From Octopus vulgaris (taxonomy: Eukaryota), in assembly GCA_951406725.2 (NCBI GenBank), contig OX597823.1, positions 52,576,001-52,640,000 of the forward strand: a DNA stretch of 64,000 nucleotides. Reading direction: 5' to 3'. Of this stretch, positions 3,001 to 48,000 are shown one piece after another; the first letter of the stretch is position 1; each line of letters starts with the position of its first letter. The position numbers are program-made.

Positions 3001-6000
3001 CAACTCACCAACATAATTGTATTAGATAAAGACAAGATACTATAGATAGATTGACTAATGCATGGACCAACTTCCTTATTAAACATTGATTTAAAATCTA
3101 ACATAAAAGGCAATATTTTAATTAACAAAGACATTTAAAGTGAGATTGGGAACATTATAAAATATTACAGTAGATAGTATTTCACTCAATTTCATTTTCC
3201 AACACTTTGACTGTGACGAAATCTCTTAAATCCAACACCTGATACTGAACTAAGGACTTCATTTAACAGGGTTAAACTTCCTTTTGACACATACTCTTCC
3301 AACTGTTTATATTCTAAGATATTAATATGTCAAAGTAAATAATGAAAAAAAGAAAAAATACTTCCTTCAAACAGGATGGAAATCTTATTTTACCAATTAC
3401 CATTTACTTGGTACTATAAATTTGTAGCTAGTGTGTCCAACACCTTGACTAATGATGGCCATCCCTCTCTTGTTACTCCTTCTACTTTCACTTTTGACAG
3501 ATAAGAATCAATAAATCTGAAGAAAGATGTAAATAACCTCAGATATAATTTTGCATCATCATAATGAATATTTCCTTCTGTTTAATTAATATTTCAGGAA
3601 CCTTCTAGTAGAATGACTCCTAAGCATGCAATTCGACATGGTTCACTATCAGAGTAGATACTAACATTACAGTTATATAGTCAAACCTAACTACATGCAA
3701 TTAACTGAAAAGGTCCCTTCTCTCCAATACAGACGAGAAGCATCTTGTGTTGGCATAGAACTATTTTGAGACTATAAAGAGATGGGTTGAGGACAGTGCA
3801 GTTCTGCTCCCAACCTAGCTTGCACCCCTGAGAGCATTACATAACTTTTAGTTGAGTTAAGACAATTAATATAATGGTTACATAGCCACAGCTATTTTCA
3901 ATTGCTTTCTTCCAAGTGGTTCTCAGAAGCACACAGCCAACCCAAGGTTTCGAGATTCCTCATCTAAATACCAAATGCATCATAAACAAACAACATTATT
4001 TCAATGACAAATATTTCTTCTCGCATTTTATACTTACATGTCAGAATTATCCCTTCAGACCAGACAAACCATAAATAAATTTATACACGCATACCCACAC
4101 ACAGATTTATGTTGATGCGTATATGTGTGTGTGTGTGTGTGTGTGTGTGTGTGTGTGTGTGTGTGTGTGTGTGTGTGTGTGTGTACATATATATATATAT
4201 ATATATATATATATATACACACATATATATATATATATATATATATATATATATATATATACTACAAAATTAGAGAATGGAGAAACATACTTAAATCAGT
4301 AAAACATCAACTATCCGATGATACTCAATCCATACTTTAATACACCATTACATATGAGTAAAGGCAATATATAAAATGAAATGAGATATACAGTAATAGT
4401 AAAAGATAAAGAGATATAAGTAAAAAATTTCAAATATAATATGCAAATATATGCAAATATAATATGCAAATATAATATGCAAATATTTGCATATTATATT
4501 TGAAATTTTTTACTTATATCTCTTTATCTTTTTACTATTACTGTATATCTCATTTCATTTTATAAATTGCCTTTACTCATATGTAATGGTGTATTAAAGT
4601 ATGGATTGAGTATCATCGGATAGTTGATGTTTTACTGATTTAAGTATGTTTCTCCATTCTCTAATTTTGTAGTATTAATTTACGGTAATATTATTACCTT
4701 TACCCATATAATACAATAGATGAACTGATTGTTTGACAATTTTTAACATCTATGTATTAATTTTGTTGGGTACCTATCTAGCAGTATATTGGATATATAT
4801 TATCCCATGGTGGGTTGAATTTTCAACCCCTATCTCATTTTATAACCTATATATATATATATATATATATATATATATATATATATATATAGAGAGAGAG
4901 AGAGAGAGAGAGAGAGAAAGAGAGATGTATATGTATGTGAGTGTGTGTATGTCTGTAAGTGTATATGACAGTGAATGTGTATGTTTATCTTTCTATCTAT
5001 CTATCTATCTGTCTATTTATGTATATGTATATCTTTATATACACATACACACACACACACATATATATATATATATATATATATATATATATACACATAT
5101 ATATATACAGGGGATGGACAAAATAATAGAAACACCCAGCATCATAGCATCATAATTTTTAAATATCTATAAAACCATCAAAACTTCTTTATTTTCTATT
5201 TTTTTCTTTTATTTATTACTATTGTTGCTTAATATGTTTTGCTAAAATTGCTGTTTCTTTTCAGATATCATCAAAAAAAGGTAATTAAGATTCATTAAAA
5301 TGACAGATCTATCAGACTTTCAAGGAGGTCAAATTGCTGGTGCTCATATGGCAGGTGCTAGTGTAACGAAAACACCTGAAATGTTTGGTGTATCAAGAAA
5401 ACTCCAGAAGAAAACAAAAACTCTCAGATAGGGCCCGCTGAACTCTTACACAAATTGTTAGAAAGGATCACAAAAGTACCACTTCCAAAATTACTGCAAA
5501 GCTTAATGACCACCTCAGGGACCCAGTTTCCACAAAAATTGTTTGCTGGGTGCTGCACAAAGCCAGATTTCATGGGAGCGTTGCAACCAGAAAACCATTA
5601 TTTTCAAAAGCAAACGTTGAAAAGTGTTTGGACTGGAGTAAAAACCTACAGAATTGGTTCCTAGAGCAGTGGAAGAATGTTATTTTCTCAGACGAGTCAT
5701 CCTTTACCTTATTTCCGACCACCCTCTGAGTATTTGTGTGGAGACAGCCAAAAGAAGCATTTGACCCAGACTGCTTTTTCCAACTGTTAAATATGGAGGA
5801 GAAGACTATTTAAGCATTTTATCTGATCAAATTCATCCTATAGTTGCAGAACTGTTTCTTTCATGATGATAATGTACCAATTCACACAGCTAAAGTTGCT
5901 ACTGAATGGCATAAGGAACATTCTAGTGAAGTTGAACATCTTATCTGGCCACCACAATCCCCAGATCTCAATATTATTGAACATTTATGGTGCATTTTAG

Positions 6001-45000: not shown

Positions 45001-48000
45001 GCCGCCTCTTTAATCTTCACCAATTTGCTGCCAATTCAAAGGTTTCCCAGTCTATTATTCGTGACCTCCTTTATGACGATGACTGTAACTTAGTCACTCA
45101 TACGGTGGATGACGTGCAAATACTCATGAATTGCATTTCTGCTTCTTGCAGGGCATTTGGACTCAGCATTAGCCTGGACAAGACTGTTGTAATGTTCCAG
45201 CCTGCACCAGGAAATCCATATATAGAACCAGCTATCTTGGTTGAAGGAACAATTCTGAAGGTAGTAGATAAGTTTGTCTACCTGGGCAGCACACTCAGCC
45301 ATTCTTGCTCCCTGGATGAGGAAATATCTTTCAGGTTGCAGAGAGCAACTAATTCATTCTGGTCTCTTCAGTATTATGTCTGGTCCCAACATGGCATCAC
45401 AAGGAGAACAAAAGTTGCTGTGTACCGTGCTTGTGTACTGACATCGCTTCTCTACTTATGTGAGACATACATACATACATACATACATACATGCATACAT
45501 ACATACATGCATACATACATACATATATATATATATATATATATATATATCTATACAATATGTTACATTACTCGGTAGTCAAGATAAAACTCTGAGTTTC
45601 AGATGCCGAAGTGGAAATCCACAACACCATCTCTTCGGTTATCTGGCTATTTGAAAACGTTATGAAAAAATACCGTTAAAAATGAAGGGAAATTACTCTG
45701 TTATAACTCTGCTTTGCCTGCGTACTTATACATCGCTCGCATTTTTCGTCATAAAAATTATATAAAAATACATACATAAAAAATATATAAAAATATATTT
45801 TTATATATTTTTATATATTTTTATATATTTTTTATGTATTTTTATATAATTTTTATGACGAAAAATGCGAGCGATGTATAAGTACGCAGGCAAAGCAGAG
45901 TTATAACAGAGTAATTTCCCTTCATTTTTAACGGTATTTTTTCATAACGTTTTCAAATAGCCAGATAACCGAAGAGATGGTGTTGTGGATTTCCACTTCG
46001 GCATCTGAAACTCAGAGTTTTATCTTGACTACCGAGTAATGTAACATATTGTATAGATAAATTTCCTCTATTTACATAATATTGAGGTCTCTTTCTTTCT
46101 TTTGTTATCTTACCGTTTTATCAATATATATATATATATATATATATATATATATATAGTCCGGCACTAGTCGCCATGATAGATCATTAGCCACTACACG
46201 CATTTTTTTTCTCTCCTTGTTTTTTCTGTGTCCCTTTCTGTAGAAGAGCGTAGGCTCGAAACGTGAAAGACTTTTTCTATTCTTGAGCGTTATACTAATA
46301 CATCTGTTTGTTTTGTACACCACCTGTCTTCATCTTTTGCTTTTTCGTAAATTCTCCCTATATATATATATATATATATATATATATATATATCATCATC
46401 ATCATTTAGCGTCCATATATATATATATATATATATTATATGTATATATATATGTACATATATATATACATACATTTATGTGTGTGTATATATATATAGA
46501 TAGATAGATAGATAGATAGATAAAACTTACTTGGAAAAGGATGCATGGCGTTTGATCATATAATAATATAAATAATATATAAATATATGCATATATACAT
46601 ACATATATGTACATACCTACATATATATGTATATATACATGCATATATGGGTACAGGATATCAAAAAAATGTGGAACACAATGAGAAATGAAAGCATAAA
46701 AACAAAAACATAAAAACGAACCTTTTTTCAAACAACGAAAAAAACGAAAAAAAAAAACAGAGTACAAGACATACAACACAAGGAATATTCCCCTTCTTCA
46801 GTTGTCCCTGTTTCATCTTCTCCGCATTTCAAAGGTAAGGACAAGACGTGACTTCATTGGAACAGTTCTTCCTGCAAAGCAAATTAAATATAATTTGGGA
46901 TTAATTGCGGAGGGTGAAAGTGGTAACAAGAACAGGACAGTAAGAACAAAACAGTAAAAACAAAGCAGTTTTTAATACAATTTAATATTTTTGCACTTGG
47001 TATCTATTTTCAGGGACTCTATATGTTTTCTTTTCCTCTCACTTGTACATTTGGGTTCAATCACCTGCAGTGGTATTGGTACTTAGAACATAGTGTACAA
47101 CCATTCCATCGGTTCCTCCAACTTCTTTGGTTCACTTTCCATTAATCTCTTTGCAGTTGGCTCTAGTGTCTCTTTTGTATACCTTTTCTACTTTTTACCT
47201 ATGCATTTGGTAATTACACCAACTCCCCAGCTCAGCTTTCCATTCTTGTATGCCCTCATATATACCTTTTCACCAACTTTAAAGAATATTGCTATGTCTT
47301 CCCCAACACTTTTTCTCTTCTTGCCTGATAGCAATTTATCAAAGACTGATTTTACTTTCTGCACAAGCATCAGCTCCACAGGTGATTGACCTAATGATGT
47401 ATTCAGATTTGGTGTCACATAGTACACTCTTAAGAATTGTTGTAGAGCTACCTCATCTGTGACTTCCTTATTCAACTTCCTAAGGGCTCTTTTGAAGGTA
47501 TCAACAAAACGTTCTGCCTGCCCATTAAATCTGGAATGGTATGGTGCTATAGTAATATGTTCTACGATGAACATTTCACAACATTTTTAAAATTCGTCTG
47601 ACACAAATTGCATTCCATTGTTAGACACTATCATGTTTGAGATGACATATCTTGCCAACAATCCATGTAAAATATTTATTATAGATGTGGAGGTTAGTTT
47701 TTTGACTCACAAATTTCTTGCCATTTCAAGAAACTATCAACTACCACTAGGTAGTAATAACCATTTAAACAACCAGCAACATCAATGTGTATTCTTTACC
47801 ACAGGACATCTATCTTTGAACAATGCTTACTTTTTCTGTGGGTAACTTTTCATTTCACTTTGGCTTACATACAACTTTTTGTTTCAGTCCTTCAGCCACA
47901 TTTGAACCTATGACTGAACCAACTATATTTCCACACAAAGCACTTATGGGCATATTCCATTCTTTGAATAGTTCCAACCAATCTGCGCTGAATAAATTAA

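What the first reader, a model, noticed from the sequence alone, without database searches (positions are those of the whole stretch)
4259..46123. Four foldback insertions share one asymmetric tail-out geometry
Seen: at 4259-4847, 21073-21408, 39031-41669 and 45548-46123, four unrelated sequences form inverted duplications flanked by (TA)n. In each, one arm runs 35-170 nt further, while the other stops at an internal AT/TA that merges with the microsatellite. Where hammerheads mark orientation, 3' ends point outward. Inference: one mechanism, such as cDNA snap-back self-priming or twin priming resolved by TA microhomology, that routinely deposits long dsRNA-forming palindromes. PLE inverted pseudo-LTRs are known; this regular microsatellite-anchored pattern may not be described.
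Basis: partly seen in the sequence, partly recalled or inferred. Interest (0 to 1): 0.72.

Follow-up and report, generated by a model that had tools for sequence, protein, structure and literature searches.

The report
Palindromic retroelement insertions in TA microsatellites
Four short non-coding mobile elements sit head-to-head as inverted double copies inside (TA)n microsatellites of what looks like an octopus genome, a layout that matches the already described insertion signature of Penelope-like retroelements rather than a new mechanism.

Summary
All four inverted duplications exist at the stated coordinates, and all 8 outer ends abut (TA)n, which covers only 2.0% of the window. Each has one arm with a unique outer extension: 172, 35, 69 and 61 nt. 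The short arms meet the microsatellite with 3, 3, 1 and 3 nt of TA microhomology, which is only marginally above chance (combined p about 0.06).

Family B has three further single copies in (TA)n. They are truncated at different points at one end, so this is a 5'-truncated retroelement whose 3' ends point outward in the palindrome. One single copy carries the same optional extension.

No hammerhead was found in any of the four palindromes.

The pattern is in print for Penelope-like elements (PLEs). Published features include a (TA)n target (also listed for octopus Naiad and Hydra families), an adjacent inverted 5'-truncated copy, and an optional "tail" at one end only. In vitro, a PLE protein cleaves and extends both strands and starts reverse transcription at two sites; the stretch between the two sites is the tail. 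Self-priming was proposed in 2013.

Verdict: real, non-random, and most likely PLE-type non-autonomous elements. These are new members of a known kind. No PLE partner was identified here, so membership is inferred.

The parts
4187..4261 (.). A: left flanking (TA)n, 75 nt, preceded by (TG)n
4262..4484 (-). A: short (tail-less) arm. It carries about 35 nt of extra 13-nt tandem units near the centre. The sense strand is taken as minus (3' end to the left); this is inferred, not shown.
4485..4675 (+). A: long arm, palindromic part. The centre is a spacer-less AT palindrome at 4484/4485. Arm substitution divergence is 1.9%.
4676..4847 (+). A: unique 172-nt outer extension (tail) on the right arm only, followed by (TA)n at 4848-4891
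21057..21073 (.). B: left flanking (TA)n, 17 nt
21074..21108 (-). B: 35-nt tail on the left arm only. It is homologous to the roughly 43-nt tail of the single copy at 51811-51853.
21109..21278 (-). B: left copy (sense strand minus), the 3'-terminal part of family B. Its inner 26 nt (21253-21278) are single-copy and continue the family sequence.
21279..21405 (+). B: right copy (sense strand plus), without tail, with a 12+2-nt internal deletion. It runs into (TA)n at 21406-21436 with TAT microhomology.
38847..39030 (.). C: left flanking (TA)n, 184 nt
39031..39099 (-). C: 69-nt tail on the left arm only. It contains an AC-rich stretch.
39100..39899 (-). C: left arm, 800 nt. Substitution divergence from the right arm is 4.25% (15 transitions, 19 transversions).
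39900..40865 (.). C: 966-nt non-palindromic spacer, CA-rich on the plus strand. It is presumably the further 5' part of one of the two copies; which one is unknown.
40866..41668 (+). C: right arm without tail, followed by (TA)n at 41669-41761
45523..45550 (.). D: left flanking (TA)n. It continues the (TACA)n tract that follows a LINE reverse-transcriptase ORF (44691-45578).
45548..45795 (-). D: left arm without tail. Substitution divergence from the right arm is 0.4%.
45812..46062 (+). D: right arm. The centre (45796-45811) is an A/T tandem tract.
46063..46123 (+). D: 61-nt tail on the right arm only, followed by (TA)n at 46124-46158
6128..6397 (+). Family B single copy, near full length, no tail. 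Its 3' end runs into a 20-nt TA-rich stretch.
51811..52175 (-). Family B single copy between two (TA)n runs, near full length, with a tail of about 43 nt at its 3' end (51811-51853)
59557..59797 (-). Family B single copy between two (TA)n runs, 5'-truncated, no tail

Best explanation
**What they are.** The four structures are insertions of short, ORF-less retroelements into (TA)n microsatellites. [quoted passage not shown]

**How each insertion formed.**
- Each insertion consists of two 5'-truncated cDNA copies of the same RNA 3' region. They are joined head-to-head, so their 3' ends face the microsatellite on either side.
- The longer arm began reverse transcription at the outer start site and carries the terminal tail. 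The shorter arm began at an inner, TA-containing site and lacks it.
- The two copies arose in one of two ways. Either both strands of the cut (TA)n target primed reverse transcription, or the first cDNA folded back and primed on itself. The sequence does not decide between these.

**Shown:** the geometry, the (TA)n association, 5' truncation and optional tail in family B, and real divergence between arms in C and B.

**Inferred:** the PLE enzyme, the order of events, and the orientation of A, C and D.
For: **Target**
- 8 of 8 palindrome ends lie in (TA)n, which is 2.0% of the window.
- Single copies of family B at 51.8 and 59.6 kb, and family E at 46159-46358, also lie between (TA)n runs.

**Retroelement with 3' ends outward**
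- In the alignment of 5 family-B copies, all share one end. The other end varies: 2 copies are near full length and 3 are truncated at different points.
- The two palindrome arms are the two shortest copies.

**Optional tail**
- B-left carries 35 nt and copy 52k about 43 nt; the two tails are homologous. B-right, copy 6k and copy 59k lack it.
- So the extension is an alternative 3' end of the element. It is not specific to palindromes.

**Published match**
- PMC8557442 (passages): (TA)n target, adjacent inverted 5'-truncated copy, tail at one end.
- Its supplement: octopus Naiad and Hydra families have (TA)n as their insertion preference.
- PMC11167929: a PLE protein cleaves and extends both strands and uses two RT start sites, and the tail is the stretch between them.

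**Host**
- The only protein homologue returned for a window ORF is from Octopus sinensis.
- A table in PMC13282606 lists 31 Penelope-like families in O. vulgaris (passages).

**Not an artefact**
- C arms differ by 34 substitutions in 800 nt.
- B arms differ by a 14-nt deletion.

**Shared polarity**
- All 4 long arms read outward are T-rich, with AT skew from -0.18 to -0.33. The family B sense strand shows -0.30 to -0.33.
Against: - **No PLE protein link.** No PLE reverse transcriptase or GIY-YIG gene is linked to any of the four. ORFs inside or overlapping A, C and D gave 0 Pfam families in 7 of 7 tested. No ORF of B was tested.
- **No hammerhead.** None was found in any palindrome. The published octopus Naiad is itself annotated 'no pLTR; HHR_half_core'.
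- **Tail lengths.** Tails of 61, 69 and 172 nt exceed the published 30-40 nt. Only B (35 nt) fits. A's 172 nt could be unrelated sequence.
- **Other (TA)n users.** (TA)n is also used by non-PLE elements here. A LINE with AP-endonuclease and RT domains (31572-35418) is flanked by (TA)n on both sides. A 21-nt SINE 3' fragment lies inside (TA)n at 46394-46414.
- **Homology at start sites.** Frangieh et al. found the internal start site not homologous to the target. Here the inner ends show 3, 3, 1 and 3 nt of TA homology.
- **Single copies.** A, C and D have only one copy each in the window, so their orientation and truncation cannot be tested.
Confidence: 0.65

Rival explanations
1. Snap-back version of the same retroelement event. 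A single cDNA primed from one side of the cut (TA)n folds back at its 3' end and copies itself. The returning strand is joined to the other side of the break by TA microhomology before it reaches the tail, which gives the short arm.
For: - A and D have spacer-less, AT-palindromic centres, and their arms are almost identical (0.4-1.9% divergence).
- Short-arm ends carry 3, 3, 1 and 3 nt of TA microhomology.
- Self-priming has been proposed for PLE head-to-head repeats with palindromes at the junction (PMC3846280, passages).
Against: - The B centre has 26 nt of single-copy sequence. I could see no pairing at the turn.
- C has a 966-nt spacer.
- Tail-less 3' ends also occur in single copies of family B, in 2 of 3. 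So the short end does not need a fold-back.
- The microhomology is only marginal (p about 0.06).
- The PAc (Poseidon PLE of Anolis carolinensis) protein extends both strands in vitro, which needs no fold-back (PMC11167929).
Confidence: 0.2
2. Mobilisation by an AP-endonuclease LINE that targets (TA)n, with a twin-priming-like event producing the inversion.
For: - A 3.85-kb LINE with Exo_endo_phos_2 (E 2.8e-14) and RVT_1 (E 5.5e-24) lies exactly between two (TA)n runs.
- SINE fragments also sit in or beside (TA)n.
- D lies in the microsatellite tract that follows another LINE RT ORF.
Against: - From my own knowledge of L1, classical twin priming inverts adjacent parts of one RNA without duplicating them. 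Here both arms copy the same region.
- No 3' similarity was found between the tails of A-D and the rest of the window, which includes the LINE 3' ends. BLAST with word size 7 gave one weak hit for the A tail and none for the B, C and D tails.
- The LINE and SINE copies in the window are not inverted duplicates.
Confidence: 0.1
3. The structures arose at the DNA level or in the assembly. They could be foldback DNA transposons or MITEs with a TA target, fold-back repair of breaks at fragile (TA)n, or chimeric foldback reads carried into the assembly.
For: - D arms show 1 substitution in 250 nt, and the outer 190 nt of A show 1. This would fit a very recent event or an artefact.
- Long (TA)n can form cruciforms and break (own knowledge).
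Against: - The ends are asymmetric in 4 of 4, so they are not terminal inverted repeats.
- Family B exists as non-palindromic copies truncated at one end.
- C and B arms have diverged by substitutions and a deletion.
- All four are short and internal to contiguous sequence.
- The 3 other local inverted repeats in the window (7428-7552, 57048-57159, 12464/12852) are not flanked by (TA)n and have no one-sided tail.
Confidence: 0.05

Closest known systems
Naiad and Hydra clades of Penelope-like elements (Craig, Yushenova, Rodriguez, Arkhipova 2021, PMC8557442), including Naiad_Obim, Naiad_Ovul, Naiad_Omin and Hydra-1_Obim
   Same: - (TA)n insertion preference, with no discernible target-site duplication.
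- 5' truncation.
- An adjacent inverted 5'-truncated copy that forms inverted repeats.
- An extension at one end only.
- No canonical hammerhead (passages; supplement table).
   Different: - The elements here are 0.3-2.6 kb with no ORF, so at best they are non-autonomous dependants.
- The whole insertion is the palindrome, rather than an inverted pLTR beside a coding copy.
- Extensions are 35-172 nt rather than 30-40 nt.
- No sequence comparison with the published consensus sequences was made.
Canonical Penelope/Poseidon elements: the 'tail' and two-strand cleavage and extension (Arkhipova et al. 2013, PMC3846280; Frangieh et al. 2024, PMC11167929)
   Same: - An optional tail at the 3' end of one of two inverted terminal repeats.
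- Head-to-head arrangement.
- AT-rich cleavage sites.
- Two alternative RT start sites that bracket the tail.
   Different: - Canonical PLEs carry hammerheads in pLTRs; none was detected here.
- The in vitro inner start site was not homologous to the target, whereas the inner ends here coincide with TA-containing sites.
L1 twin priming (recalled from own knowledge; only listed in search results, papers not read)
   Same: Two priming events at one staggered break give an inverted 5' segment joined to a direct 3' segment, often through microhomology.
   Different: Twin priming does not duplicate the same RNA region in both arms, and it leaves a poly(A) tail and a target-site duplication. Here the arms are copies of each other, there is no poly(A), and the target is (TA)n.
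Animal non-LTR retrozymes as non-autonomous PLE derivatives (bioRxiv 10.64898/2026.07.22.740005; abstract and outline only)
   Same: Short non-coding elements thought to depend on PLE machinery.
   Different: Retrozymes are defined by active hammerheads and tandem organisation. The elements here have neither.

Membership tests
Penelope-like element insertion (PLE-mobilised) | PLE-clade reverse transcriptase plus GIY-YIG endonuclease, encoded by the element or by an identified autonomous partner with the same 3' end | tested here: not met
   - 7 of 7 ORFs inside or overlapping A, C and D gave no Pfam family.
- The window's RVT_1 hits belong to AP-endonuclease-type LINEs.
- There is one sub-threshold GIY-YIG-like ORF at 30428-30823 (19.2 bits against a cut-off of 22.6). 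It shows no similarity to A-D.
- A partner elsewhere in the host genome could not be searched.
Penelope-like element insertion (PLE-mobilised) | Adjacent inverted 5'-truncated copy, head-to-head, with 3' ends outward | tested here: met
   Met for B, using 5 aligned family copies. For A, C and D only the inverted duplication itself and the shared T-rich polarity are shown.
Penelope-like element insertion (PLE-mobilised) | [quoted passage not shown] | tested here: inconclusive
   A one-sided extension is present in 4 of 4. Lengths are 35 nt (B, fits) and 61, 69 and 172 nt (longer than published). The tail is optional among family B copies: 2 of 5 ends carry it.
Penelope-like element insertion (PLE-mobilised) | AT-rich or (TA)n target, as listed for octopus Naiad and Hydra families | tested here: met
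   8 of 8 ends lie in (TA)n against 2.0% background. Published preference.
Penelope-like element insertion (PLE-mobilised) | Hammerhead ribozyme in the terminal repeat (canonical clades only; absent from Naiads) | tested here: not met
   No Rfam hammerhead hit in B, D or the C right-arm end, even at E<=10. None at gathering score in the window. The only hit is Hammerhead_1 at 25.7 bits (gathering 34) at 31062-31147, outside the palindromes.
Penelope-like element insertion (PLE-mobilised) | Partial tandem copies forming pseudo-LTRs | tested here: inconclusive
   Copies 52k and 59k carry a tandem duplication of the roughly 35-nt 3'-terminal module (read by eye). No larger tandem was seen.
L1-type twin priming | The inverted and direct segments are neighbouring, non-duplicated parts of one RNA, with a poly(A) tail and a target-site duplication | tested here: not met
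   The arms duplicate the same region at 95-99.6% identity. No poly(A) is present at either end.
Foldback DNA transposon or MITE | Symmetric terminal inverted repeats reaching both ends, a target-site duplication, and copies of uniform structure | tested here: not met
   One end carries 35-172 nt of unique sequence in 4 of 4. Family B copies are non-palindromic and truncated at one end.
Non-LTR retrozyme | Functional hammerhead and tandem monomers | tested here: not met
   Searches found no hammerhead. The copies are dispersed or inverted, not tandem.

The most novel reading that the evidence does not exclude
The two arms may not be equivalent. In every palindrome, exactly one arm starts at the true RNA 3' end, by protein-directed initiation. 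The other starts where the (TA)n primer of the opposite strand can anneal to an internal UA-containing site.

That would make second-strand priming homology-guided in these octopus elements. It would differ from the homology-independent internal initiation reported in vitro for the Anolis PLE. It would also explain why whole non-autonomous elements are regularly laid down as long hairpin-forming loci, which could feed small-RNA pathways.
Probability: 0.15. Interest if true: 0.55.

Novelty: new member of a known kind. Interest (0 to 1): 0.25.

Why it matters
**Where the pattern belongs.** The finding correctly spotted a real, regular insertion architecture, but that architecture belongs to the known repertoire of Penelope-like elements. 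Its practical value is for annotation. Short ORF-less palindromes in (TA)n of cephalopod genomes are likely PLE-dependent elements, and such structures are easily mislabelled as MITEs, unknown repeats or assembly errors.

**What could still be tested.**
- Whether exactly one arm always carries the tail.
- Whether the tail-less arm is primed through TA homology.

A genome-wide census could answer both. The answers would bear on the still unresolved second half of PLE integration.

**Possible downstream effect.** Perfect hairpins of 0.25-0.8 kb are also candidate sources of double-stranded RNA. D folds at -414.7 kcal/mol with a z-score of -47.7.

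Tried and rejected
- **Hammerheads.**
  - Whole-window Rfam scans at gathering score and at E<=10, plus focused scans of D with its neighbour, B and the C right arm, found none in the palindromes.
  - My own scan for CUGANGA, a stem and GAA(A) gave 6 sites, none in A-D.
  - One of those sites, 31068-31133, is backed by a sub-threshold Hammerhead_1 hit and a compatible centroid fold.
  - The site at 57940 has no Rfam hit, and its minimum-energy fold is not hammerhead-like (z-score 0.26).
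- **Coding remnants inside the palindromes.** None found.
- **Full-length PLE through the GIY-YIG-like ORF.**
  - The near-length search gave 1 hit, an uncharacterised Octopus sinensis protein.
  - The longer-length search scored none of its 94 candidates.
  - The Atlas search gave hypothetical-protein clusters, one with GIY-YIG on 11% of members.
- **Shared 3' ends.** BLAST of the tails of A-D and of several other stretches against the window (word size 7), and cross-BLAST of the long arms with B and E copies, found only low-complexity A/T tracts and one weak hit for the A tail. A 17-nt resemblance between C and the LINE 3' end, seen by eye, was judged coincidental.
- **tRNA genes.** None found.
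- **Other possible regularities.**
  - Which side carries the tail: left in 2, right in 2.
  - Whether the short arm sits beside the longer (TA)n run: 2 of 4.
  - Whether the tail-bearing arm is also the longer one at the centre: mixed.
  - None shows a pattern.
- **Row dropped.** My filter dropped palindrome D. It is documented instead.
  - Other copies of these families, orthologous empty sites and read support could not be examined.
  - The nucleotide consensus sequences of published octopus PLEs were not compared.

Full report
**1. The observation**

The window has no N and is AT-rich, with GC mostly 0.30-0.45. All four inverted duplications are present.

| | Arms | Identity | Centre | Source |
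|---|---|---|---|---|
| A | 4259-4675 | 96.7% | spacer-less | |
| B | 21103-21414 | 84.5% with gaps; ungapped blocks of 58 and 61 nt at 97-98% | 26 nt single-copy | |
| C | 39100-39899 and 40866-41669 | 95.3% | 966-nt spacer | |
| D | 45545-46062 | 96.7% | A/T tandem tract | |

- Perfect (TA)>=6 runs, merged when 12 nt or less apart, number 37 and cover 1306 of 64000 nt, or 2.0%.
- All 8 outer ends of the four structures abut such a run. Chance cannot produce that.
- The window has 3 other local inverted repeats:
  - a 125-nt hairpin at 7428-7552;
  - a 112-nt hairpin at 57048-57159;
  - a MITE-like pair of 63-nt arms at 12464/12852.
- None of these three is flanked by (TA)n or has a one-sided extension.
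- My filter dropped D, which is documented.

**2. The asymmetry**

I read each arm from the centre outward. One arm continues with unique sequence before it reaches (TA)n.

| | Extension | Length | Arm | Microhomology at short arm |
|---|---|---|---|---|
| A | 4676-4847 | 172 nt | right | tat (3 nt) |
| B | 21074-21108 | 35 nt | left | tat (3 nt, by eye) |
| C | 39031-39099 | 69 nt | left | t (1 nt) |
| D | 46063-46123 | 61 nt | right | ata (3 nt) |

- The other arm passes straight into the microsatellite. The bases shared between the long arm and the repeat at that point are listed in the last column.
- I placed every possible breakpoint in the same arms with either repeat phase. This gives P(3 nt or more) of 0.163, 0.047, 0.083 and 0.146, and P(1 nt or more) of 0.488 for C.
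- Fisher's combination of 0.163, 0.047, 0.488 and 0.146 is about 0.06 (my arithmetic).
- So the rule that the short arm stops at an internal TA is suggestive and not established.
- No other regularity appeared. The tail is on the left in 2 and on the right in 2. The short arm lies beside the longer (TA)n run in 2 of 4.

**3. Are the palindromes real?**

Arm-to-arm substitution divergence:

| | Substitutions | Other differences |
|---|---|---|
| A | 1.9% (4 transversions, clustered near the centre) | 2 small gaps |
| B | 1.5% | a 12+2-nt deletion in the right arm |
| C | 4.25% (15 transitions, 19 transversions) | 2 small gaps |
| D | 0.4% | gaps in the central A/T tract |

- C and B have therefore aged as genomic sequence.
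- A and D are young or homogenised, and only reads could fully exclude an artefact there.
- All four are short and internal to contiguous sequence.

**4. What family B shows**

- BLAST of the window against itself found three more copies of B: 6128-6397, 51811-52175 and 59557-59797.
- The two at 51.8 and 59.6 kb lie between (TA)n runs. The one at 6.1 kb ends in a 20-nt TA-rich stretch.
- In the alignment of the five copies, all share one end.
- At the other end, two copies are near full length. Copy 59k, B-left and B-right stop at three different points.
- That is the pattern of 5'-truncated cDNA copies. It fixes the orientation: in the palindrome, the two 3' ends point outward and the truncated 5' ends meet at the centre.
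- B-left runs 26 nt further 5' than B-right, and those 26 nt follow the family sequence. The junction has at most 1 ambiguous base.
- The extension is not specific to palindromes. Copy 52k has a homologous 3' extension of about 43 nt, while copies 6k and 59k stop at ...TTTTGTAT and pass into TA repeats.
- Family B thus has at least three 3' end points. The inner ones lie at TAT in the longer form.

**5. Orientation of A, C and D**

- These are single-copy in the window, so truncation cannot be used.
- Read outward, all four long arms are T-rich, with AT skew of -0.24, -0.33, -0.19 and -0.18. The sense strand of the three single B copies shows -0.30 to -0.33.
- This is consistent with one common polarity. 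It is weak evidence: three free signs give a chance of 1 in 8.

**6. Hammerheads**

- Rfam found nothing at gathering score.
- No hammerhead appeared among the 150 listed of 175 matches at E<=10.
- None appeared in focused scans of 45540-46360, 21070-21410 and 41480-41668.
- B copies share a string of the form CUGANGA...GAAU (by eye). C has CUAAUAA...GAAAC AUAU GUA (by eye). These are degenerate at best.
- The only Rfam support in the window is Hammerhead_1 at 31062-31147 on the plus strand: 25.7 bits against a gathering score of 34, local E of 1.7e-4. Its centroid fold is compatible.
- That site lies 240 nt downstream of a GIY-YIG-like ORF at 30428-30823 (Pfam 19.2 bits against a cut-off of 22.6).

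**7. Content of the elements**

- ORFs within or overlapping A, C and D gave no Pfam family in 7 of 7. B was not tested for ORFs.
- A-D share only A/T low-complexity tracts.
- They are best described as non-autonomous elements of separate families.
- A fifth family, E (46159-46358 and 7975-8097), also ends at (TA)n on the same strand in both copies.

**8. Host and literature**

- *Host.* The only homologue returned for a window ORF is an uncharacterised Octopus sinensis protein (64% identity).
- *Craig et al. 2021* (PMC8557442; passages):
  - PLE insertions are highly 5'-truncated.
  - Often an inverted 5'-truncated copy lies immediately adjacent, forming inverted repeats.
[quoted passage not shown] - Naiads prefer (TA)n, so target-site duplications cannot be discerned.
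  - Naiads lack canonical hammerheads.
  - Their supplementary table lists (TA)n as the insertion preference of Naiad_Obim, Naiad_Ovul ('no pLTR; HHR_half_core'), Naiad_Omin and Hydra-1_Obim.
- *Arkhipova et al. 2013* (PMC3846280; passages):
  - They infer self-priming from palindromes at head-to-head junctions.
- *Frangieh et al. 2024* (PMC11167929; main text through the start of Methods):
  - A purified PLE protein cleaves and extends both strands of an AT-rich target.
  - It starts reverse transcription at two internal sites.
  - The sequence between those sites is the genomic tail.
- *Octopus vulgaris repeat annotation* (PMC13282606; passages): a table lists 31 Penelope-like families with 336 insertions.
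- *Searches on related terms* returned no other description. I found no paper that states an 'exactly one tail' rule or TA-homology at the inner start site. That is an absence in four searches of the held library, not proof.

**9. Mechanism**

Most likely mechanism (confidence 0.65):
- A PLE ribonucleoprotein cuts a (TA)n tract.
- cDNA synthesis from the RNA 3' region starts on both sides, or the first cDNA folds back and primes on itself.
- Each start uses either the outer or the inner start site.
- The two 5'-truncated cDNAs are joined head-to-head.
- This accounts for the target, the orientation, the 5' truncation, the optional tail in single copies and the one-sided tail.

What speaks against it or remains open:
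- No PLE protein or partner was identified.
- There is no hammerhead.
- Three of four tails are longer than the published 30-40 nt.
- An AP-endonuclease LINE at 31572-35418 is also flanked by (TA)n on both sides. A 21-nt SINE 3' fragment lies in (TA)n at 46394-46414. So (TA)n is a general landing site in this genome.
- Rivals are listed separately with their weights: the snap-back variant, LINE-driven twin priming, and a DNA-level or assembly origin.

**10. Novelty and score**

- The geometry is a known PLE signature. The elements themselves look like undescribed non-autonomous members.
- Two points could still be new:
  - a rule of exactly one tail per palindrome (4 of 4 here; at most 0.0625 under independent choice);
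  - homology-guided inner initiation (p about 0.06).
- Both need genome-wide data.
- Interest is 0.25.

**11. What stayed unchecked**

- Other copies of the families, autonomous partners, orthologous empty sites and read support could not be examined, because no eukaryotic genome collection was available.
- Published nucleotide consensus sequences of octopus PLEs were not compared with A-D.

Noticed in passing
window 31572-35418 (+), flanks 31543-31571 and 35419-35548: A 3.85-kb LINE with Exo_endo_phos_2 (E 2.8e-14) and RVT_1 (E 5.5e-24) domains sits exactly between two (TA)n runs of 29 and 130 nt. An AP-endonuclease LINE in this genome may therefore also target (TA)n. It has no inverted partner copy.
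   Followed up: partly
window 30428-30823 (+) and 31062-31147 (+): A small ORF with a sub-threshold GIY-YIG match (19.2 bits, cut-off 22.6) is followed 240 nt downstream by a sub-threshold type I hammerhead (25.7 bits, gathering 34). Its only homologue is an uncharacterised Octopus sinensis protein. This may be a 5'-truncated PLE 3' end. No longer homologue was found.
   Followed up: partly
window 57935-57980 (+), element end at 58070: A hammerhead-like core string (CUGAAGA, 5-bp stem, GAAAC AAUU GUA) lies 100 nt upstream of an element end that abuts (TA)n at 58071-58102. It has no Rfam hit, and its minimum-energy fold is not hammerhead-like.
   Followed up: yes
window 46159-46358 (+) and 7975-8097 (+): A fifth short family (E) has two copies, about 75% identical over 122 aligned nt. 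The first lies between two (TA)n runs. The second ends at (TA)n 8098-8110. Neither is palindromic.
   Followed up: partly
window 46394-46414; also 8113-8282 (-), 25434-25651 (-), 35549-35712 (+): SINE copies with (ATG)n-type tails. One 21-nt 3' fragment is inserted inside a (TA)n run, and two others lie directly beside (TA)n.
   Followed up: no
window 25900-30100 (-): A series of repeated LINE C-terminal ORF fragments on the minus strand (one with a zf-RVT match, E 1.3e-4). The region has strongly negative AT skew.
   Followed up: no
window 44691-45578 (+): A LINE reverse-transcriptase ORF (RVT_1, E 5.4e-8) is followed by a (TACA)n(TA)n tract. Palindrome D is inserted in that tract.
   Followed up: no
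window 5844-6218 (+): A Tc1/mariner-type transposase remnant (DDE_3, E 2.8e-11) ends where the family B copy at 6128-6397 begins.
   Followed up: no
window 12464-12914; 7428-7552; 57048-57159: A MITE-like element with 63-nt terminal inverted repeats (95% identity) encloses a (TA)n run. There are also two short hairpins of 125 and 112 nt. None has (TA)n flanks or a one-sided extension.
   Followed up: partly
window 18563-18801 (+): A sub-threshold match to eukaryotic LSU rRNA (41 bits, gathering 50; model positions 1896-2354).
   Followed up: no
window 52000-58000: Extreme composition: GC 0.21 at 52-54 kb, then GC skew above +0.5 and AT skew about -0.3 at 54-58 kb. No ORF there had a Pfam family above threshold (3 ORFs tested).
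   Followed up: no
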